Source of the DNA: Lytechinus pictus
Taxonomy: Eukaryota
Reading direction: 5' to 3'
Length of the DNA: 64,000 nucleotides
Assembly (NCBI RefSeq): GCF_037042905.1
Contig: NC_087251.1
Location: 16,742,001 to 16,806,000, forward strand
Positions 1 through 25,812 of the stretch are shown here, one piece after another (the stretch's first letter is position 1; every line of letters starts with the position of its first letter). Under the pieces are notes generated by a model. The model ran no database searches, was not told where the DNA came from, and saw nothing but the letters and a program-made list of their open reading frames with translations. Both the position numbers and the translations under genes were made by a program.

Positions 1-792
1 GTTATGTTGTGTTAAGCGGGTGTTAAGATGGCATACCTTTATTTGGAAACTCCACTGTCTTGATTGGGAGTTGGACAACAACATAATCACCACATGATAT
101 TCACGGAACATCTGGTGTAGTAATCATTAATCAACTAATCTCACAAGCAAGTCATACTCTGAATGACATCCATATAGGCCTGTACATTATGTGAACTTTC
201 AGTTATATGCCTGGCTTTATATCCACACTCTCGAAATTTCCGTATAAGAAGAGGCAAGTGCAATCGCTATTGTTTTTACCGACCCGGATACAAAAGGGAG
301 TGTGCGCATAAAAAAATCCAATCCCAGCTAGGAATATCATTCTGAGTCATCAATGGAGTTTGATACGTCCCTTGTGATACTAACGAATAGATTCGAAACC
401 AGTACCTACCGTGACTATCAACGAGCAGATAGAGTGATATTTATACAGATTATCATCAGAAACACTAAATGGGCATGATTGTGGTGAGCGATATACACTG
501 AAGTCTTGAAAACAAGCCATATTTTTCCATGGGCACGATGTTTTAGCACTATCGATATTCGTGCGTTGTATACCTCAGAGCTCAGAAAGTTGCTGATAAT
601 GTCAGCGAATACTTCCATGATATCACATCGAAAATAAAAAGCAATGTGTTACAGTCATTTCACGGATATTGAACTCATGCATGATCTACGCCATCAACCT
701 TAATTAGGCATCCGGCACGTGTGGGGGAATCGATATATTACATCTTGCAGTTTGAGAAGTTTTTAGAACTCGAGTTAGAGGCGGTGGTCGTC

Positions 793-1132
793 ATGGAGCA
801 GAACGCATGGCAGACGAGGACACACCTCCTTGCCGTGCTCGTCATCTTCTGGATCTACCTCTTCATCGGCGCTTTGATCTTCACTTCCATCGAAAGGCGA
901 CATGCGGACAATCTCCATCATAGATTCCTCCACACCGCCATCGATTTCGTCGCCAACAACTCCTGCGTCGATCATGGTGACCTGCAGACCTACTCCAATG
1001 TCCTGATCGATGTCTATACCGGGGGACTTCGATGGACCACCGATCAAGGCTTCAATTCATCAAAACATCATTATCATCATTGGGATCTTGTAGATTCACT
1101 CTTCTTTTGTGCAACGGTCGTCACCACTATAG
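793..1132 (+). CDS. Two-pore domain (K2P/KCNK family) potassium channel, coding exon 1 of 2; model join(793..1132,9057..10009), 430 aa
   Basis: ATG at 793. Encodes TM1 (LLAVLVIFWIYLFIGALIFTSIE), a cap region with Cys (NNSCV) and pore helix WDLVDSLFFCATVVTTIG. Ends at a G|GTATGG donor, phase 1, inside the GYG filter. Subfamily not assignable by eye. Confidence 0.92.
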
Positions 1133-1287
1133 GTATGGCTTATTATTAAGTTTATTAATAAATCAAACGAGCAGGCCTGTATCATAATTTTATCTGGCCC
1201 CTCTGATCCGGGGGGCAAATACGCCGAATCATTCTGTTCTTTCTCGCTTTCTCTTAACTTTGCAAGGATGAATGCGTATAGCCAGCT

Positions 1288-3630: not shown

Positions 3631-4589
3631 GGACAAGTAGGAATACATTATATAGTTGAAAGTCAAAGAGCAATAGAATCGAACATAGTTGGGCAATAAT
3701 ATAATATCAAGAATTCAAAGAAAGAAAGAAAGAAAGAAAGAAAGGGTACCGGGCCAAGTGGGGCACATCACAACAAAAAAAAAGCTGTAAATGTGGGTAC
3801 AGTTGCACCCAGACTGACATGATCTGGATGGAGACGGGTGTCTACGTGTTTAGGAATTTTTAAAAAGGCTATTATAAATTCTTATCCAATAATGTAACAC
3901 TGTCTTGTTTGACTCGTACAAAACATGGACTTGATTAAGAGTTCGTTAGTTATAAAGTGTATGAAAATGAACTTGTGTTTAATGCACAAAAAGGAAGAGT
4001 TGATAATTCAATTTTTTTCAATTCAATTTATTTTCAGTCTTCAACATAATACAAATGAATACAAGATAAATTAATTCAATTTACATAAAAGCATGAACAA
4101 AATTCAACATTGAATAAAATAATGATATACATATTCAATAAGTGATTCGAATATAAATTAACATGCATGTCAAATTGAAATCAATATAATCAATATTATG
4201 AAATATGAATAAATCAATATAATTATATATCATGAGAAGAATAATGATTAGCTTCATCGCCTTGTTATCCTTTGATTTCTCTTTCAAAGAATATTCTGGA
4301 CCTAATTCTACAGAAAATTGCGTTTGGTCTCTGTACGACAATATTACTACTTAATTTTCCTGACAAATAATCAGCGACAGACACTTGTGTATTTGTGGAG
4401 TGAGCCTGTGGCCTGGAACCCCCTCCTCTTTTTTGTCTATAACTTCATCAATTTTTTTTGTATTTTTAATTTCATAAAACTTTGCTGAATATATTGAACA
4501 AGTAAAAAAAATCAAATGGAGAGATATATCTCTCCTTCTTAATTGTTATTACTCGCTCAATCTATAACAGAATGAATATAATATATTTT

Positions 4590-4628
4590 GCCTCCGACGA
4601 AGATTCTGCTAGAATCGAAAGCTTAGGC
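4590..4628 (+). ncRNA. Minimal type I hammerhead ribozyme motif (U4C core variant)
   Basis: Stem I GCCT/AGGC, core CCGACGA, extra A, stem II GATTCT-gct-AGAATC, GAAA, palindromic AGCT stem III, putative CUU site. Lies inside a 65-bp insertion flanked by agaatgaatat direct repeats. Confidence 0.6.
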
Positions 4629-5204
4629 CCCTTTTTGACTTTCTAGAATGAATATTAATTAATTTTGGTTTTTGGTTAACGTTTTGTTTTATTGTGCCTT
4701 TGAATATAGAAAAAGCGCAAAGTGAATCATGGCCATGACTAACACTTGTATTTATAAATGAGTACATAGATACATATTTTTATTTTTTATTCTCTCACAT
4801 CAAAAATGACAAAACAAATTCAAATGTTCGCATGACACATTTTATTGACATTGGGAAGAGAAACCAGCATTAAGCGAAGTCTTTGATTACGTGGATTCCT
4901 CAAGAAAAAAAAGGGGGAAAATATAGAAAACAGGAAAAGAAAATGGAACCATGGGAACGGTACAGACCTGTAATGTTGTTGTACAAATGGCACAGAGCCA
5001 GTCAGCAAAGTTAACGATCAATTACATTTTACCTGCCAGTCAAGTTTAGCATTGAGTTGACCAAACATTACTGAATGATATACATTGTCATTGGGGAGTA
5101 ACGAGATGATGTTAATTCTACAGCTATCTTCTGCACCCGCACCTGCACCTGCATTGCACCCACTTGTTCAGTAATTATACCAATCATAGTCACGAACCCT
5201 TTTT

Positions 5205-7891: not shown

Positions 7892-9056
7892 CGGGTGTAA
7901 ATCTCGGGGGGTGGGAGGAAATACCCCCTCCCCCATTGTTCAGAGAGCTGGGATGGCATGTACAATCACCACACATACACACACACACACACACTTTTCA
8001 AGACCAAAACGTTTTTTTTTTCAATCAATCATCAAATAACTAATACTACTGTTATAATGCGTGGATTCATCTAAAAGTTGAATGCATTCAACTTGCTTAA
8101 ATTGGCCTAATTTTGCCTCTTAAAGACGCAAAATTTCTCGCACTTTCGCTCTGCTCCTGTGCTTAATCAATTCTTACAAGAATTTGAAAAATCCGTACGT
8201 TAAACTCATGGCTAATGTTATATCCGATGCATCATGAGAGTATAATAAGGCCATTTTTTTAATCGTGTGATTCCAGTGACTATTTGAATATGATTATAAC
8301 TTTTATCATAAACAAATCAAAACATCATTTAAATACACTGTAGTGAATGTAGGGGGTGGGGTTATATCCTGGTTATCCTGGTATCTTTGTGGAAGCGGAG
8401 ATGAATAATGTTACAAAAAATTATATAATTCAAGTGTACCTTGAAATCAATGCCGTTTATGAAACACTTAGGCATGTTAGGACAAAAATATTTTCCACAC
8501 ACCTTTACAATAAATTTTATCCATCTTTATATGAATTTAGCTCAAAATTTTGAATGTTGCATCACATTGATAATATTTAATATTATTAAAAAAACATTCA
8601 TTTCTGTTGCAATTGTTTCCTTTGCATTTGCACCATCATGCTATTTCCACGTTTTTGGAAGTTTATTGTGTGTCCTGTGAGTGACGGCCTATAATCGTTC
8701 ATAAGCACTCTTATTCCCGATAATCATGATCATGTTTTTTTTTTTCATCTCACCTAAAACCAGTGAGCAAATACAGTGTTGCGTCCCCTCCTAATCTGTT
8801 ATATTCCGCTGCCACTGCATTTTGTTGTCCTCTCATATTTTGTTTCATTTTGATTTTGGGTAACTTATCGGTGAGGTGTGGTAATAGAAGCATTCCATGA
8901 CAATGTTCACGTTTAATTATTGCATGAAGATCTGTTTTTATATCACATTGTCTTGCTTCGTCTTGATCTTTGGCTCTCCTTGTATATCGCTTCTCCTTAA
9001 TACACCATTTCATTTCTTCATTTACAAATTCTCTCAATTTTCCTCTCTTACTGCAG

Positions 9057-10009
9057 GTTATGGTAATTTGGCCCCGAGTACTGAACTTGGCCGATCAATC
9101 TGCATTATATATGCATTGATTGGTATACCCCTTAGTGGTCTTCTCGTCACCATCATCGGGCAGCAGCTCAAAAAGCGACTCAGGGGTATCTGGCGTCGTC
9201 TCCTTGTTCGGCTGCACTGCATCACAACCAGGGAATCATCAATAGCCCATCGTATAGCATCGTTCATGGCCGTCGTTGTCGCTGGTGTTGCCTTCTACGT
9301 CATTCTCATTATCATCCCCGCGTGCCTGTTCAACTACATCGAAGGTTGGAACTGGCTAACGAGTCAATACTATGCTTTCATCTCTTTCACAACTATCGGG
9401 TTCGGGGATTATGTTGCTGGTGACGGTCAGACCCTGACTGCGGTCGGTCGCGTGGTCTACAAAGTTATTCTCATTTTTTACCTTGTCTTTGGGATGGGGT
9501 TCGTCACCATGCTCTTACAGGGACTCCAGCACCGCAATGCTCAAAAGGTGAGGCAGTTCGCACAACGAAGAGTCATCAGGAGAATCAGGAAAAAGAAACG
9601 TAAGGCTGGATTGGACGAGGCAGACGGAAGCTTCTCCAAAGAGATGCATTCGGAGAGTGATGAGTACGTCGTCATAACAACGGATGTTGTTGGAGATGAT
9701 AGTCAAGGGGAGGTGTTTGAGATGCAGGAACTGGAATCGGGTGTAGCCTTTGAAACTGTGTCACTTGTCGATGATGTTATGCAAACACAATCCACCTTGA
9801 CATTTGATGCTGCTACACAGACAGACCGGTTGAAAGTTGATAATGGTTGTTGTTGTTGTTGTCATAGCAAGTCAGAGAGGGATAATAGTAGTACAATGAC
9901 ATCGAAGTCTTCACAATCGTCTTCCTTTTCATCATCTGAATTGAAGGCTGTAAATGGCCATGAGATGACGTGGAAGATTACTGAAAACTTAGCTGAATAT
10001 AAGCCTTGA
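9057..10009 (+). CDS. K2P potassium channel, coding exon 2 of 2
   Basis: Polypyrimidine tract plus CAG acceptor at 9054-9056. Splicing restores TTIG-YGNLAPST. Also encodes TM2 (IIYALIGIPL), second pore EGWNWLTSQYYAFISFTTIGFGDYV, TM4 and a basic then acidic C-tail. Stop TGA ends at 10009. Confidence 0.93.
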
Positions 10010-16542: not shown

Positions 16543-18710
16543 AATTCTGTAATCTTCGGCCTGTAAGTAATCTGAAGTATGTACCATGTATCAAAGCTTG
16601 AGTTGTGGAAGGTGCTGCATATACGCAAATAATGAATCACCTTGACCGCAACTCTCTTCTTCCAATTAATCAGTCAGCCTACAGACAGTATCACAGTACT
16701 GAAACCACACTGTTAAGAATTAAGAGTGATAATATTCTCATGGCTATGGATGATAAGAACGTCACCTTATTACTTTTATTAGATCTTAGTAGCACATTCG
16801 ATACCATTGATCATACTAACCTATTGCATACACTAAACAAATACTTTGGTATTAAGGGTGTAGTACTTGACTGGATAGAATCATATTTAACCGACAGATG
16901 TCAGCGGATCCAAATTGATGAAACTGTTTCTGATATTTTCTCAGTACCTTTCGGAGTCCCGCAAGGGTCCCGTCTCGGCCCTCTACTGTTCACTTTATAC
17001 ACAAGTCATCTCATTACAAATATACATAGTATATTTCCTCAAGTATCTTGTCACTGCTACGCAGATGACACACAGGTCTATCTGTCTTTTACGCCAGACT
17101 TGCTTGCTCAGCAGCAGAGCATCTCTCTTCTAGAAGATTGGGCCGTATGCATAAAAACAAGCAATTGCTTGTGCTAGCCTTTTGCTTGAATCGGTATGCA
17201 CACAAACAAGCAATTGCTTATAAGCAAAAGCTTTTGCTTACAAGCACAAACAATTGCTTACTACTCGTAAGCAAATGCTTACCAAACAAGCAATTGCTTA
17301 AAACCGTATGCATAAAACAAACCTTTTACTTGTCTTAATAAGCAATTGCTTGCGTTTTTTCAAGCACCTCCGGACCAGCTTGAGCTCTTGCTTACTCATG
17401 GCATTCTCGTTTAAGGATTAAATTTTCATACCGTTTCAAGATCCATATTCCAGAGGTTATGTTGTGATTTCATATCTAATCAAATTCCTGTTATTTTAGA
17501 ATTTTTACGGCAATTTTTGTCCATCGATCTACACAGAAACCCCCCTGATGCTCTGCGCTGTTTTCCCCCTATTTGCGTAATAAAAAATACTGCTGCCAGG
17601 TCGGGCACGAAGCGTCGTTGTCCTACTGTGCGATGTTCGCACAACCGTAACGATCCTTTGTCCAACACATAAGCAATTGCTTAGGCAGTGCAAGCAAAAG
17701 GTTTCAGCACAAGCAAAAGCTTGTGCATACGAATTTAAACAATTGCTTGAACTTGCCCTTTTGCTTGACCAGCTCTTGCTTTTGCTTAAAGCATTTGCTT
17801 ATAAGCAATTGCTTGTCTTTATGCATACGGCCCATTGTGTTGGTTATATATGTGACTGAATGTTGCATATCAGCAAAACAGAATTGCTAGTTATCGGCAC
17901 ATCTAAACAACTGAATAAGCTAGATTTTGACGGGATATCAGTTGGCAGTTCAGTGATAGAACCAAATTCTAATGTAAGAAATCTTGGAGTATTTTTTGAC
18001 TCGCAATTGAATATGGAAGCACATATTACCAATGTGTGTAAATCTTCATTTAATATGATATACAACCTCAGACGTATACGAAAATACTTTGACAATGAAA
18101 GCATGAAAACAATTGTCCATGCATGCATTATTAGTAAGGTAGATTATTGTAACAGTTTGCTGTATGGGCTCCCCTCGTCTCAAATTGGGCGTCTTCAGCG
18201 AGTACAGAACGCATGTGCACGGCTGATTTGTAGTCAATCTAGATTTTCAAGGATCACCCCTGTCTTAAAAGACCTGCACTGGCTTCCAGTTCGCCAACGA
18301 ATATCTTTCAAGATTTTGTTAATCAAATACAAGGCACTAAGAGGGCCAAGCCCCCAGTTATATTTCTGAGCTTTTACAAAGAAAAGTTCACAGACACTCT
18401 CACAACCTGCGCAGTTCTCATGATAATTTGCTCCTTCATATCCCCACTCATAATACAACTTTGGGAGATCGTGCTTTTGCCTGTGCAGCCCCAAAATTAT
18501 GGAATGCTTTGCCGTATGTAATAAGATCATGTCCATCAGTAGAAACGTTCAAACTTAAACTAAAAACCTATCTGTTCAAATAATTCCCATACATTTATTT
18601 ACCCCCTTTTCTAATTTTGTTCTCAAGCATCTCACCAGCTCTTAATTGCAGCGCAGTAGAATATATGCACAGTTTCTGCGCTATATAAATTAGTATATAT
18701 TATATTATAA
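16543..18710 (+). mobile_element. 5'-truncated, decayed L2/CR1-group LINE (RT domain) in CHURC1 intron 1, interrupted by a MITE
   Basis: RT motifs QSAYRQYHSTET, LLDLSSTFDTIDH, GVPQGSRLGPLLF and YADDTQ; C-terminal VRNLGVFFD, DYCNSLLYGLP and LHWLPVRQRISFKILL. In-frame stop at 17857-17859, frameshifts and an AT-rich tail. Confidence 0.9.
17140..17833. mobile_element. PIF/Harbinger-like MITE with 3-bp TSD (ATT)
   Basis: TIRs gggccgtatgcataaaaacaagcaattgctt / aagcaattgcttgtctttatgcatacggccc, with subterminal AAGCAATTGCTT palindromes. Removing it restores the LINE frame LEDCVGYICD. Confidence 0.88.
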
Positions 18711-22246: not shown

Positions 22247-22603
22247 TCACCTGTTTTGGGAGGACAAGTTTACCTATAAAATTGGAGGAGTGTTTCAGAC
22301 CCAGACCAAAAATGCAAGGCTATCGCCTAAATTTCAGCAACATCTAACATAAGAAAGGGCCTATTTTGGCTTTGATGCCATTCCATCAAAAACATATTCT
22401 TGCTTTGACTTCCTTCTGTAGGTGCACCACCAGTAGCGTGTTTCATAAATGCTTACAACTATTGTGATTTCCATAGAAATCTTGATTGTGATTGGCTACT
22501 GAGCCCTGTTACCATGGAAGATGCCATTATGGCAAAGTTATGAAACTGCAATCTGATCATTGTGGGCCCTTTTTCACCATTTGCTTCCATTTTTTTTTGT
22601 CAG

Positions 22604-22742
22604 GGCAACATATGTTTGGACAATGGCTCTTACATTCTCAATTTTGACCACTGTGCTGAGTGCCAGAAACGAGAGCCAATCAAGATCACACAGAGGAATG
22701 TAGAGGTCAAAGATGATGGAGAGGAGGTCATATCTTATGAAC
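22604..22742 (+). CDS. CHURC1: Churchill exon 2
   Basis: CAG acceptor; GNICLDNGSYILNFDHCAECQKREPIKITQRNVEVKDDGEEVISYE; GTAAGT donor, phase 1. Confidence 0.93.
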
Positions 22743-22903
22743 GTAAGTTGTTAGAGTCTTGTTAGATTTATAACCTGATGTCAAGTTGGTTTTGATGAAA
22801 ACATAAAATGAGAGATAAATATTCATGAAAGTTTGACAAAAAATCCACAATAGAATAACAGTTAAAAATTTTTTGTTGTCTGTTGTCATCTACAGGTATG
22901 TTG

Positions 22904-23861: not shown

Positions 23862-24240
23862 GATATGTTCCAGCAATCAACATTTTTACTCAGAAATTTT
23901 GATATGATTTAACATGTGTATTCAATCAGACACATTATTCCATACAAGCTTCATAGAAATAAAAATCACTCACTCATGAAACTTAAAAGAGTTGCTTGCA
24001 TGTGATATCACAAAATCTAAATATAAGTAAGTTATGATCTGATGGAAAATATTTTTCTTTTATTTTTTCTGAGCACATTAGGTTGGACTTTCTCTTTTGA
24101 ATGATTAACTTGACCCAAATAGAAATAAAATCAGAATAAAATCAAACAAGCAAACGTATATAAAGTAGAATATTTATCTTAAAAACCAGAAAGGAAAAAA
24201 ATTCATTTAATATCATACCATGATATTAAATGAATTTAAT

Positions 24241-25812
24241 ATTCTTGCTCCCTTAGTCGGGTCCAATGGACATGCTGTCCATAACTCTGCATCGTTTGTT
24301 GATTTCCTGCGCAGCGAAACCATACAGGAACACGAGGTCATGGTTTCATTTGATGTGGTGTCATTGTTTACCAATGTACCCATCGACGCCGCATGCAAGG
24401 TCGCACTTAACAGACTCGAACGCGATGAGAGTCTACCCGAGCGCACACAGTTATCTCCGGCCCAGGTAACTGAGCTTTTGAGTTTTGTTTTACAATCTAC
24501 GTATTTTATGTTTGCCGGCAATTTCTACGAACAGCAAGAAGGAGCAGCCATGGGCAGCCCTGTTTCCGCAGTAATCGCTAACCTGTTCATGGAAGCTTTT
24601 GAGGAACGCGCGCTGAGTATTTGCCCGCCCGACTGCGCCCCTAGAGTTTGGAAGCGATACGTAGATGACACGTTTATTATCACGCATAGATCCGCCGCCG
24701 ATGACCTTTTGAGCCACATGAATTCGCAGCAGCCATCCATCCGTTTCACCATGGAGATGGAGTGCAACGAGCGCATTGCCTTTCTAGACACTATGGTGCA
24801 CCGTGACACCAGCGGCCGATTGTACACCACCGTATACAGGAAGCCCACGCACACCGATCAGTACATTGCTTATGATTCGCATCACCCGAAGTCCGTTAAG
24901 CGCGGTGTAGTGAAGTGTCTTTATGACAGAGCTTCACGCATCGTTACTAAGCCCCATTGCACAGCTACAGAGAAGCAACACATCACCTCGGCTCTTATTT
25001 CTAACGGTTACCCGCGCTCCTTCGTTAACCGCGTTGCTAAGAGGAAGAGCGCTCCGTCCGAACAGCCTGCGCAATTCAAATCCGCTATAGTAATCCCATT
25101 TGTTGATGGTATCGCGCATCTTCTCCGCCGGCGCTTGGAGAAGCATGGCATCCGAGTTATATTCAAGTCCGACAGCATCCGCAGCCAGCTGGTCCGTCCG
25201 AAAGACCGCCCGATCCCCGACAGACGCGATGGGGTTGTTTATAAGATCCCATGCTCGACTTGCGACAAAGTCTACATCGGTGAGACTGGTAGACCTGTGG
25301 GGGAACGCATGAAGGAACATCGCCGTGATGTTCGGCTTAGGCGCACTGATAGCTCTGCTGTTGCAGAACATGCTTGGGACTCCGATCATCCACCTAACTG
25401 GGATGAGGTCAGCTGCATTGCTCATGATAAGCATTGGTATACGCGGCGCGTTAAGGAAGCGATTCAGATCCGTTTGCACCCGAGCAATATCAATAGGGAC
25501 AGCGGCATTGAGATCCCTGATGCATGGTTACCGGCCATCCGACGGCATACTGCATCCACCGTTCAGAGCGCACGGCGCCCGCACCAGCAGGTGCCTGACA
25601 CCAGCGCAGATGCTGATTGGCCGGCCGCATCGGCCAATCACAGCGCACGGTGCACGCTCCAGCGGGCACCAAGCACCAGCGCGGACCCTGATTGGCCAGC
25701 GGCTTCGGCCAATCACAGCGCGGCTCACGCCCGAGTGGAGCCGGACAATAGCTCCCGACGCTATATAACCCGTGCGCAGCAGCGTCTTTGCTCATTGCCT
25801 GACGAAGTCTAG
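24241..25812 (+). CDS. Penelope-type reverse transcriptase / GIY-YIG endonuclease (N-terminally truncated)
   Basis: SFDVVSLFTNVP, GAAMGSPVSAVIANLFME, WKRYVDDTF, FLD, VYRKPTHTD and GVVYKIPCSTCDKVYIGETGR...RMKEH. No stops over >520 codons. Confidence 0.9.
   Translation: MLAPLVGSNGHAVHNSASFVDFLRSETIQEHEVMVSFDVVSLFTNVPIDAACKVALNRLERDESLPERTQLSPAQVTELLSFVLQSTYFMFAGNFYEQQEGAAMGSPVSAVIANLFMEAFEERALSICPPDCAPRVWKRYVDDTFIITHRSAADDLLSHMNSQQPSIRFTMEMECNERIAFLDTMVHRDTSGRLYTTVYRKPTHTDQYIAYDSHHPKSVKRGVVKCLYDRASRIVTKPHCTATEKQHITSALISNGYPRSFVNRVAKRKSAPSEQPAQFKSAIVIPFVDGIAHLLRRRLEKHGIRVIFKSDSIRSQLVRPKDRPIPDRRDGVVYKIPCSTCDKVYIGETGRPVGERMKEHRRDVRLRRTDSSAVAEHAWDSDHPPNWDEVSCIAHDKHWYTRRVKEAIQIRLHPSNINRDSGIEIPDAWLPAIRRHTASTVQSARRPHQQVPDTSADADWPAASANHSARCTLQRAPSTSADPDWPAASANHSAAHARVEPDNSSRRYITRAQQRLCSLPDEV

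What the first reader, a model, noticed from the sequence alone, without database searches (positions are those of the whole stretch)
4569..4655. A 65-bp insertion that is essentially only a hammerhead ribozyme, with an 11-bp TSD
Seen: agaatgaatat occurs at 4569-4579 and 4645-4655. It brackets GCCT-CCGACGA-A-GATTCT/gct/AGAATC-GAAA-GCTT-AGGC plus a short tail. Known: Penelope-like elements and retrozymes carry minimal type I hammerheads whose palindromic stem III is thought to need dimerisation. Inference: this is either an extreme 5'-truncated PLE insertion or a tiny non-autonomous ribozyme retroelement. It has a non-canonical U4C core and lies sense in the K2P channel intron.
Basis: partly seen in the sequence, partly recalled or inferred. 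Interest (0 to 1): 0.72.

Follow-up and report, generated by a model that had tools for sequence, protein, structure and literature searches.

The report
Hammerhead-bearing stub of Penelope retrotransposon
This is a 60-base leftover of a young, very abundant Penelope-like jumping gene, made of little more than that element's small hammerhead-ribozyme motif; it is an ordinary by-product of how such elements copy themselves, not a new kind of mobile element.

Summary
An exact 11-bp direct repeat (4569-4579, 4645-4655) brackets 65 bp containing a minimal type-I hammerhead (4590-4628) with C at core position 4.

The insert is one of at least 1,343 near-identical copies in this 812-Mb genome, which looks echinoderm from its protein relatives. 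All are 3' ends of a roughly 4.2-kb Penelope-like element (PLE). That element has a 909-aa RT plus C-terminal GIY-YIG ORF, about 122-bp pseudo-LTRs, head-to-head inverted copies, variable TSDs in AT-rich targets and an optional 60-62-bp tail. All of this is known PLE anatomy.

The window copy is a dead-on-arrival, extremely 5'-truncated copy: 60 bp of element plus 5 filler bases. Short and long copies share the same sequence, so I see no separate "tiny retroelement" lineage.

Two points go beyond routine:
- In 36 of 37 hammerheads of related PLEs the core has U4. This family, and its counterpart in a second species, has fixed C4 yet still amplified.
- 31 of 93 sampled copies end within 7 nt of the hammerhead's 5' edge, next to a conserved GTCATTTT motif.

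RNA reads show no cleavage ends. Catalysis is untested.

The parts
4569..4579 (.). left copy of the 11-bp target-site duplication (AGAATGAATAT)
   Evidence: sequence; 3 matches in the window against 0.17 expected
4580..4584 (+). 5-nt junction filler AATAT, a repeat of the last 5 nt of the TSD; not part of the element
   Evidence: homology to the family starts at about 4585. Similar fillers occur at other copies, such as L114 and L089 (read by eye).
4585..4644 (+). 60-bp element-derived unit: the 3' terminus of the PLE, from the 5'-end hot spot (A+TTTTGCC) to the first reverse-transcription start site (...CTTTCT)
   Evidence: 42 scored matches at 97-100% identity, 873 first-look candidates; blastn of the L046 element against the window matches only 4585-4645
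4590..4593 (+). hammerhead helix I, 5' strand (GCCU)
   Evidence: covariation in relatives
4594..4600 (+). catalytic core C3-C4-G5-A6-C7-G8-A9 (C instead of U at position 4)
   Evidence: C4 in 98 of the first 100 listed of 1,343 matches; U4 in 36 of 37 relatives
4601..4601 (+). unpaired A between A9 and G10.1, typical of PLE min-hammerheads
   Evidence: one unpaired 'a' in 35 of 37 relatives, though the descriptor allowed 0-2 nt of any kind; PMC4209133
4602..4616 (+). helix II hairpin, 6 bp plus loop GCU, closed by G10.1-C11.1. The window copy has U-A where most copies have U.G (AGAATC against AGGATC).
4617..4624 (+). G12-A13-A14, palindromic A15.1-G-C-U16.1 (no helix III of its own) and U17; the predicted cleavage site is after 4624
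   Evidence: (4-bp intermolecular AGCU duplex only -2.5 kcal/mol); cleavage itself not tested
4625..4628 (+). helix I, 3' strand (AGGC)
4629..4644 (+). 16-nt 3' tail ending at the family's first, sharp 3' end (...GACTTTCT)
   Evidence: 60 of 93 sampled copies end here, and 29 of 93 run on for a further 59-71 bp
4645..4655 (.). right copy of the 11-bp target-site duplication
685..1146 (+). context: upstream reading frame with the start of an Ion_trans_2 pore domain (host K2P-type channel gene)
   Evidence: E 1.4e-4, 22.1 bits against cut-off 22.5
8888..10006 (+). context: downstream reading frame with Ion_trans_2 (2 stretches), same strand as the insert
   Evidence: E 2.8e-22

Best explanation
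The insert is a dead-on-arrival, extremely 5'-truncated copy of an autonomous, recently active Penelope-like element (PLE). [quoted passage not shown] It carries a minimal type-I hammerhead about 935 nt after the stop codon, 20 nt before its 3' terminus. Inferred from the published PLE mechanism (PMC11167929): the element's RNP nicked an AT-rich site in the K2P intron. Reverse transcription then began at the first of two internal start sites on the RNA (...CUUUCU), copied 60 nt back through the hammerhead and ended at a hot spot just 5' of helix I. The end was joined with 5 filler bases, leaving an 11-bp TSD. The hammerhead is the ordinary PLE 'min-HHR': 4-bp helix I, 6-bp helix II, a bulged A and palindromic AGCU in place of helix III. 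It could cleave only when paired with a second copy or helped by protein. Its C4 core is a derived, family-wide change. This single intronic copy most likely does nothing and is merely transcribed passively with its host intron.
For: - **Copy number:** one search gives 42 scored matches at 97-100% identity. Exact-pattern counts are 588 (32-mer), 648 (20-mer) and 1,343 (hammerhead 5' half), each with 0 in the reversed control.
- **Parent element:**
  - One search gives 150 scored matches (565 candidates) at about 98% identity to the endonuclease C-terminus; at least 7 of them have a 909-aa open frame.
  - One search finds RVT_1 (E 3.3e-8) and GIY-YIG (E 1.4e-3).
  - Searches show L046 as [unit+ext]-ORF-3'UTR-[unit+ext]; L044, L045 and L046 are 98.5-99.4% identical over their long alignments of 3.2-4.0 kb.
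- **PLE hallmarks in the copies:**
  - TSDs of variable length, about 7-15 bp, in AT-rich targets (read by eye).
  - Head-to-head inverted pairs.
  - Two sharp 3' ends, 60 of 93 at ...CTTTCT and 29 of 93 some 59-71 bp further on. These match the 'tail' between two RT start sites described in PMC11167929.
- **Hammerhead fold:** one search finds 35 descriptor hits on the ORF strand and 2 on the other strand in 79 related PLE loci, against 0.075 expected per randomisation. In one search, 9 of 10 consensus pairs show compensatory changes.
- **No separate lineage:**
- **Passive transcription:** both strands are covered (about 325 against 265), 82-97% of reads run on into unlike flanks, and no molecule ends pile up.
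Against: - Random 5' truncation alone does not explain why 31 of 93 sampled copies end within 7 nt (26-32 nt before the sampled 32-mer). Only 9 end anywhere closer in and 10 in the next 27 nt. The cause of this hot spot is open.
- Rfam's hammerhead models do not score the motif.
- U4, which this family lacks, is kept in 36 of 37 relatives. The ribozyme may therefore be impaired.
- RNA reads give no ends at the predicted cut site.
- The sample of 93 covers only contigs C1, C2 and part of C3, and only copies with an exact 32-mer, so the subfamily with one more C is unsampled.
- TSDs were read by eye.
Confidence: 0.9

Rival explanations
1. The pseudo-LTR piece is a self-sufficient, non-autonomous mini-retroelement. 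Transcripts would start at an initiator-like TCA(+1)TTTT just 5' of the hammerhead. They would contain the hammerhead and the RT start site(s) and be copied in trans by the PLE protein, so that 60-bp and about 122-bp copies breed further copies.
For: - The sharp 5'-end hot spot (31 of 93) is shared by the 2 of 2 true 5' pseudo-LTRs seen (L015, L046) and by both arms of inverted pairs.
- GTCATT(T)T directly 5' of helix I is kept in relatives with 65-88% protein identity, while sequence further upstream diverges.
- An A/T-rich patch 10-20 nt further upstream is rarely used as an end (about 4 copies), so microhomology alone is a weak explanation.
- Published PLEs have the TSS in the pLTR (passages in PMC8557442).
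Against: - No lineage-specific substitutions: the majority sequence is the same in short and long copies.
- No pile-up of RNA starts at the site, though the element is barely expressed in those runs.
- Several short copies include 1-5 nt of upstream body (GTCA), so they were copied from a 3' or internal unit.
- 60-bp copies lack the 62-bp extension, which probably holds the downstream RT-recognition region; by analogy with PMC11167929, about 55 nt 3' of the start site are needed.
Confidence: 0.1
2. The 60-bp copy is a 'solo pseudo-LTR'. A full-length insertion flanked by two units would later have lost its interior by recombination between the units, as solo LTRs form.
For: - Full elements do carry the unit at both ends (L046).
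- The short copies keep TSDs and have the same 5' boundary as 5' pseudo-LTRs.
Against: - Sixty base pairs is a short substrate for recombination to account for a third of all copies in a family whose members are still 98-99% identical.
- Short copies with 1-5 nt of body sequence before the unit, or with fillers and inverted snippets at the 5' junction (L089, L110, L120; the window's AATAT), look like primary insertion junctions.
- The share of 3'-end types is the same in short and long copies, as expected if both come straight from reverse transcription.
Confidence: 0.07
3. The motif is no longer a working ribozyme. The U4-to-C change would have inactivated cleavage, and the conserved fold would serve only as an RNA structure for the PLE protein, or nothing at all. 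On this view 'hammerhead' describes ancestry, not activity. This is compatible with the best explanation for the insert.
For: - U4 is kept in 36 of 37 relatives but lost here (98 of 100 listed copies).
- U4C 'considerably decreases activity in vitro' (passage in PMC3088659).
- Hammerhead catalytic mutants did not affect PLE insertion in vitro (PMC11167929).
- No RNA ends at the cut site, with depth unbroken across it.
- At most 3 of 648 genomic copies start exactly at the cut site.
Against: - The same passage (PMC3088659) says the U4C viroid variant kept enough activity in vivo for infectivity.
- All other core positions and both helices are intact.
- In the second species the only frequent change inside the hammerhead is at the free position N7.
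- PLE min-hammerheads with canonical cores also show little cleavage in vitro and no RNA-seq ends (PMC4209133, PMC11167929), so absence of ends says little.
Confidence: 0.4

Closest known systems
Minimal type-I hammerheads (min-HHR) in the pseudo-LTRs of metazoan Penelope-like elements (Cervera & de la Pena 2014, PMC4209133, main text read)
   Same: Short helix I (4 bp), long helix II (6 bp), an unpaired nucleotide between A9 and 10.1, a G10.1-C11.1 pair, palindromic 15.2-16.2 with no helix III, and location in the pLTR on the ORF strand. Most genomic copies are single dispersed motifs 'probably related to truncated PLEs', and some are inverted pairs.
   Different: C instead of U at core position 4, fixed family-wide. 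The host is an echinoderm-like genome; that paper's main text does not mention echinoderms, and I did not open its supplements. The family is nearly uniform in sequence (113 of 122 descriptor hits in my loci are identical), like the D. virilis case and unlike the variable families described there.
Poseidon PLE of Anolis carolinensis, PAc (Frangieh et al. 2024, PMC11167929, main text read)
   Same: RT plus GIY-YIG ORF, tandem/pLTR layout, AT-rich target preference, and two discrete 3' ends that fit two internal RT start sites with an optional tail between them. The hammerhead lies near the start sites, and no RNA-seq reads end at the hammerhead cut site.
   Different: The tail here is 60-62 bp, not 30-40 bp. 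The first start site lies only 20 nt after the cut site, against roughly 85-90 nt in PAc. The hammerhead lies about 450 nt before the ORF rather than overlapping its start. None of the biochemistry was tested here.
Animal non-LTR retrozymes (PMC7229834, passages; bioRxiv 10.64898/2026.07.22.740005, abstract and one section)
   Same: Small non-coding hammerhead-bearing sequences derived from, or related to, PLE pLTRs. One locus here (L108) is a two-copy tandem of a 249-bp internally deleted derivative of this PLE.
   Different: Retrozymes are tandem arrays of about 170-400-bp monomers expressed as circular RNAs, usually with canonical hammerheads. The window copy is a single 60-bp unit with TSDs. 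The 249-bp derivative occurs at one locus only.
5'-truncated LINE copies and solo LTRs
   Same: Dead-on-arrival short copies with TSDs that far outnumber full-length elements.
   Different: The 5' ends are not spread at random: a third fall in one 7-nt window. The 3' end is set by internal RT initiation, not by a poly(A) tail.
Natural U4C hammerhead variant of a viroid (cited in PMC3088659, passage read; the primary paper was not seen)
   Same: The same core substitution in a natural, replicating element.
   Different: A viroid type-III hammerhead with stabilising tertiary contacts, not a minimal dimer-dependent PLE motif.

Membership tests
Hammerhead ribozyme, PLE-type minimal type I | Core nucleotides C3, G5, A6, G8, A9 and G12-A13-A14 in the right order | tested here: met
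   (4594-4600, 4617-4619); descriptor hit
Hammerhead ribozyme, PLE-type minimal type I | U at core position 4 | tested here: not met
   C at 4595; C in 98 of the first 100 listed of 1,343 copies; U in 36 of 37 relatives
Hammerhead ribozyme, PLE-type minimal type I | Open helix I (4-5 bp) and helix II (6-8 bp) closed by G10.1-C11.1, with an unpaired nucleotide after A9 | tested here: met
   the same layout in 35 of 37 relatives
Hammerhead ribozyme, PLE-type minimal type I | A15.1...U16.1 with palindromic 15.2-16.2 and H17 (not G) before helix I | tested here: met
   AGCU then U at 4620-4624
Hammerhead ribozyme, PLE-type minimal type I | Helices supported by covariation among relatives | tested here: met
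   9 of 10 pairs have both-sides changes in 26 sequences. Caveat: the sequences were picked by a descriptor that demands pairing. Controls: 35 against 2 by strand and 0.075 expected by chance.
Hammerhead ribozyme, PLE-type minimal type I | Site-specific self-cleavage after position 17 | not testable with these tools
   RNA reads show no ends at the site, but that is also reported for a cleavage-competent PLE hammerhead (PMC11167929)
Rfam Hammerhead_1 (RF00163) and sister models | Score at or above the curated gathering threshold | tested here: not met
   No match at gathering or at E<=10 on 4450-4750. The models include a helix III that min-HHRs lack.
Penelope-like element, endonuclease-positive (parent of the insert) | Single ORF with reverse transcriptase followed by a C-terminal GIY-YIG endonuclease | tested here: met
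   (RVT_1 E 3.3e-8; GIY-YIG E 1.4e-3, 19.3 bits against cut-off 22.6); relatives carry precomputed PF00078 and PF01541
Penelope-like element, endonuclease-positive (parent of the insert) | Pseudo-LTRs from partial tandem copies, inverted 5'-truncated neighbours, frequent 5' truncation | tested here: met
   (L046)
Penelope-like element, endonuclease-positive (parent of the insert) | Optional short 'tail' at the insertion end (two RT start sites) | tested here: met
   60 of 93 copies end at site 1 and 29 of 93 carry a 59-71-bp extension, longer than the published 30-40 bp
Penelope-like element, endonuclease-positive (parent of the insert) | Clade assignment (Penelope/Poseidon, Neptune, Nematis, Hydra) | not tested
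   No tree was built. The linker before GIY-YIG has invariant Cys at 772, 777 and 780. From memory this resembles the extra Zn-finger-like motif of Neptune/Nematis; that is recalled, not tested.
Animal non-LTR retrozyme | Tandem array of roughly 170-400-bp monomers, each with a hammerhead | tested here: not met
   The window copy is single: 1 match in the window and 1 descriptor hit. The only tandem derivative seen (L108, 249-bp period) is unique to one locus.

The most novel reading that the evidence does not exclude
The 5' edge of the hammerhead unit, with its conserved GTCATTTT (initiator-like TCA+1TTTT), is the pseudo-LTR's transcription start. PLE reverse transcription starts at internal sites only 60 and about 122 nt downstream. 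Every pseudo-LTR, including solo copies that keep the 62-bp extension, would then be a complete miniature template. Such a roughly 122-bp promoter-hammerhead-start-site module would keep spawning 60-bp and 122-bp copies. That would make it the smallest known element mobilised by target-primed reverse transcription, and a direct precursor of animal retrozymes. It would have thrived for at least the divergence of two species with a C4 hammerhead core.
Probability: 0.12. Interest if true: 0.65.

Novelty: new member of a known kind. Interest (0 to 1): 0.3.

Why it matters
For annotation, the 'mystery ribozyme insertion' in the channel intron is a routine fragment of a Penelope-like element and needs no special function.

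For specialists there are two modest leads.

- **A natural experiment on the hammerhead core.** A PLE family reached more than 1,300 near-identical copies, and persists in a second species, with C at core position 4, where 36 of 37 related elements keep U. This fits the in-vitro report that hammerhead catalysis is dispensable for PLE insertion. Alternatively, C4 may be tolerated in the protein-assisted, dimeric setting.
- **A pronounced 5'-end hot spot.** The hot spot at the hammerhead's edge, beside a conserved motif, together with two sharp 3' ends, gives a genome-scale readout of where PLE reverse transcription starts and stops. That could be checked against the single biochemical study available.

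Tried and rejected
- **Rfam:** no hammerhead hit in the window. The RF00163 search of the whole genome scored only 73 of about 116,000 candidates and gave 2 sub-threshold hits, which is uninformative.
- **Copies templated on hammerhead-cleaved RNA:** rejected. Only 3 of 648 exact 20-mer tails are preceded by a base other than T.
- **Cleavage at the GUC just 5' of the unit:** rejected by inspection. No helix I hairpin can form between that site and the core.
- **Cap-derived extra G at 5' junctions:** rejected by eye. The extra G is part of the TSD, for example in L092.
- **The 249-bp tandem derivative (L108) as an amplified retrozyme family:** rejected. Its deletion junction occurs only at that locus (2 hits).
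- **Dimer folding:** the minimum-energy dimer swaps helix II strands rather than pairing AGCU, so this gives no support for or against the dimer model.
- **RNA runs:** no RNA holder is listed among the indexed runs. The laid raw reads show no begin/end pile-ups and almost no reads running from the extension into the 5'UTR.
- **Earlier-findings look-ups:** these returned nothing.
- **Literature limits:**
  - Lunse et al. (PMC5785218) is not held.
  - No paper holds 'Penelope-like', 'sea urchin' and 'hammerhead' together.
  - Supplements of PMC4209133 were not opened and may list echinoderm motifs.
- **TSD tabulation:** TSDs were read by eye.
- **Genome-letter allowance:** This left three things undone:
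  - collecting more 5' pseudo-LTR boundaries;
  - examining the two U4 copies seen;
  - sampling the five-C subfamily.
- **pLTR boundary in distant relatives:** the pLTR's 5' boundary lies 165, 116 and 5 nt before the hammerhead in L179, L155 and L157. The edge hot spot is therefore not general.
Full report
**1. The observation**

One search shows agaatgaatat at 4569-4579 and again at 4645-4655, with 65 bases between.
- Inside lie GCCT (4590-4593), CCGACGA (4594-4600), an extra A (4601) and the hairpin GATTCT-gct-AGAATC (4602-4616).
- These are followed by GAA (4617-4619), AGCT (4620-4623), T (4624), AGGC (4625-4628) and a 16-nt tail.
- The 11-mer occurs 3 times in the window against 0.17 expected.
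- A descriptor for a minimal type-I hammerhead, allowing U or C at position 4, hits the window once, at this site. It hits 0 times in 300 random 64-kb windows scanned on both strands.
- The single-strand fold recovers helices I and II, but its energy is not unusual (z = -0.72).
- Rfam reports no hammerhead, neither at gathering threshold nor at E<=10.
- Reading frames with the Ion_trans_2 pore domain lie on the same strand at 685-1146 and 8888-10006. An intronic, sense position in a two-pore-domain potassium channel gene is therefore plausible.

**2. It is a repeat**

The window's genome has 812 Mb in 368 contigs. Its closest named protein relatives are from sea urchins, a sea cucumber and a starfish.
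- It holds 42 scored matches at 97-100% identity, from 873 first-look candidates.
- Exact-pattern counts are 588 for a 32-mer covering the 3' half, 648 for the 20-nt tail and 1,343 for the hammerhead's 5' half. Each has 0 in the reversed control.
- The gap between 648 and 1,343 reflects tail variants. For example, the three full-length copies I fetched have one more C.
- In the flanks of the first 30 loci the 3' end ...GACTTTCT is constant.
- Most short copies begin at (A)TTTTGCC.
- Nearly all short copies are bracketed by their own direct repeats of about 7-15 bp in A/T-rich DNA (read by eye).

**3. The parent**

Some copies continue upstream into shared sequence. In L030 that sequence contains the C-terminus of a GIY-YIG endonuclease.
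- A search with those 62 residues found 150 scored matches (565 candidates) at about 98% identity. At least 7 sit in a 909-aa open frame.
- L046 shows the whole element, in this order:
  - the unit plus a 62-bp extension;
  - about 450 nt of 5'UTR;
  - a 909-aa ORF with RVT_1 (E 3.3e-8) and GIY-YIG (E 1.4e-3, just under Pfam's cut-off);
  - about 935 nt of 3'UTR;
  - the unit plus extension again.
- Three ORF-intact copies are 98.5-99.4% identical over their long alignments of 3.2-4.0 kb.
- This is the anatomy of an endonuclease-positive Penelope-like element with pseudo-LTRs (PMC4209133, PMC8557442 passages, PMC11167929).
- The window contains no other piece of this element.

**4. Ends of the copies**

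I took every exact 32-mer hit on contigs C1, C2 and the first part of C3, which gave 93 distinct occurrences.

3' side:

| 3' end type | Copies (of 93) |
|---|---|
| end at ...CTTTCT | 60 |
| run on for 59-71 bp, mostly 60-62 bp, to ...TTTTTGCC(A) | 29 |
| broken versions | 4 |

- The extension is simply the first 60-62 nt of the element's 5' region.
- Two sharp alternative 3' ends are what Frangieh et al. describe for a lizard PLE. There reverse transcription starts at two adjacent internal sites, and the stretch between them is the optional 'tail' (PMC11167929). Here the tail is longer than the published 30-40 bp.

5' side:

| 5' boundary (nt before the 32-mer) | Copies (of 93) |
|---|---|
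| 26-32, i.e. 0-5 nt before TTTTGCC | 31 |
| fewer than 26 | 9 |
| 34-59 | 10 |
| more than 59 | 43 |

- The hot spot at 26-32 is shared by both arms of head-to-head inverted pairs. It is also shared by the two true 5' pseudo-LTRs I saw (L015 and L046).
- An equally A/T-rich patch 10-20 nt further upstream is used only about 4 times, so microhomology with A/T-rich targets is not enough to explain it.
- The motif GTCATT(T)T directly before helix I is kept in relatives of 65-88% protein identity.
- In three more distant relatives the pseudo-LTR starts 165, 116 and 5 nt before the hammerhead, so the hot spot is not a general PLE property.

**5. No separate lineage of short copies**

- Short and long copies have the same majority sequence: 26 of 33 against 31 of 43.
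- They carry the extension equally often: 12 of 33 against 16 of 43.
- The window copy differs from the majority by one base, G to A, which turns a U.G into a U-A pair in helix II. Two long copies share that base.
- Its own junction has 5 filler bases (AATAT) that repeat the end of the TSD.

**6. The hammerhead reading**

The published PLE 'min-HHR' has the following features:
- a 4-5-bp helix I and a 6-8-bp helix II;
- an unpaired nucleotide between A9 and 10.1, and a G10.1-C11.1 pair;
- palindromic 15.2-16.2 in place of helix III;
- location in the pLTR;
- mostly single dispersed copies taken to be truncated PLEs, plus some inverted pairs;
- feeble cleavage in vitro even as a dimer (PMC4209133).

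Every architectural point is met here.

For comparison I fetched 79 metagenome loci encoding relatives of the ORF, at 36-88% identity.
- A relaxed descriptor that left position 4, the bulge and the closing pair free found 35 hits on the ORF strand and 2 on the other strand. Only 0.075 are expected per randomisation.
- All 37 hits have G10.1-C11.1, 35 have a single unpaired A, and 36 have U4.
- RNAalifold on 26 distinct sequences gives helices I and II, with compensatory changes at 9 of 10 pairs. The caveat is that the descriptor required pairing.
- The nearest relatives (L139 at 88%, L141 at 80%) have the same helices but the core CUGAAGA.

**7. The C4 core**

- In this genome 98 of the first 100 listed copies have C4 and 2 have T. 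C4-G5 is a CpG, so C-to-T decay is expected.
- In RNA reads of a second species the unit also has C4. Its free position N7 is A in about 64% of reads and C in the rest. The order U4-A7, then C4-A7, then C4-C7 is my inference.
- The family therefore kept amplifying after losing U4.
- U4C is known to lower activity sharply in vitro while still allowing a viroid to remain infectious (passage in PMC3088659).
- Hammerhead catalytic mutants did not impair PLE insertion in vitro (PMC11167929).

**8. Is it cut?**

- Raw rRNA-depleted RNA reads from three runs of one species and one run of another were laid on a natural body-unit-extension-5'UTR stretch.
- They cover the unit about 300-fold on both strands. 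Between 82% and 97% of reads run on into unlike flanks, and no position shows a pile-up of molecule ends.
- Depth is unbroken across the predicted cut. Hardly any read continues into the 5'UTR.
- This looks like passive transcription of dispersed copies. It gives no sign of cleavage or of a start site, but the element itself is nearly silent in these samples.
- In the genome, at most 3 of 648 tails begin exactly at the cut site. Cleaved RNA was therefore not a common template.

**9. Verdict**

The insert is an ordinary, extremely 5'-truncated Penelope-like element copy consisting of the element's hammerhead-bearing terminus.
- It is a new member of a known kind.
- Two things go beyond routine: a strongly conserved core position lost in a thriving family, and a sharp 5'-end hot spot beside a conserved motif. 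The cause of the hot spot is open: transcription start, RT stop or joining bias.

Noticed in passing
L108 (G000:C2:42467590-42468221), about 126-592: Two head-to-tail copies of a 249-bp internally deleted derivative of the same PLE: extension, 80 nt of 5'UTR, the last 47 nt of the body, then the hammerhead unit. It is retrozyme-like in layout, but its deletion junction occurs only at this locus (2 hits genome-wide).
   Followed up: partly
window 24211-25809 (+): A 533-aa open frame that is 32% identical to residues 394-645 of the PLE ORF (tblastn E 8.5e-29) with a weak RVT_1 match. It is probably a second, divergent PLE-like reverse transcriptase. My descriptor finds no hammerhead near it.
   Followed up: partly
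window 16602-17174 (+): A 191-aa frame with a clear RVT_1 match (E 2.5e-20): another retroelement fragment downstream of the channel gene.
   Followed up: no
window 22544-22762 (+): A 73-aa frame matching the Churchill protein family (PF06573, E 3.3e-17), probably an exon of a neighbouring host gene.
   Followed up: no
L011 (G000:C6:9605397-9608460, element strand), about 1506-1558: A short hammerhead unit with a 15-bp TSD has inserted into the 3'UTR of a longer copy of the same element, giving a nested insertion. A second unit of the host copy lies about 900 bp downstream.
   Followed up: partly
L141 2848-2915, L142 332-400, and the 62-bp extension of the family (for example L030 1561-1622): Inside the optional tail, a block reading roughly AAGCAGTTT(T/G)CAGCAG is kept in relatives of 65-80% protein identity. 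It may be part of the signal for the second reverse-transcription start site.
   Followed up: no
L164 and L208, minus strand: The only two descriptor hits on the strand opposite the ORF share one helix II, and one of them has C4. They are probably inverted 5'-truncated copies next to related PLEs, and a second, independent instance of C at position 4.
   Followed up: no
window about 4519-4536: A perfect 18-nt palindrome (GGAGAGATATATCTCTCC) lies about 35 nt upstream of the left TSD copy (4569). It drew several spurious sub-threshold Rfam matches. No link to the insertion is evident.
   Followed up: no
L108:222-266: Over the last 45 nt of the element's body, RNA reads are strand-biased about 3:1 in the three rRNA-depleted runs, while the unit itself is covered almost equally on both strands. 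The library's strand convention is unknown, so the direction of the excess transcript is unresolved.
   Followed up: no
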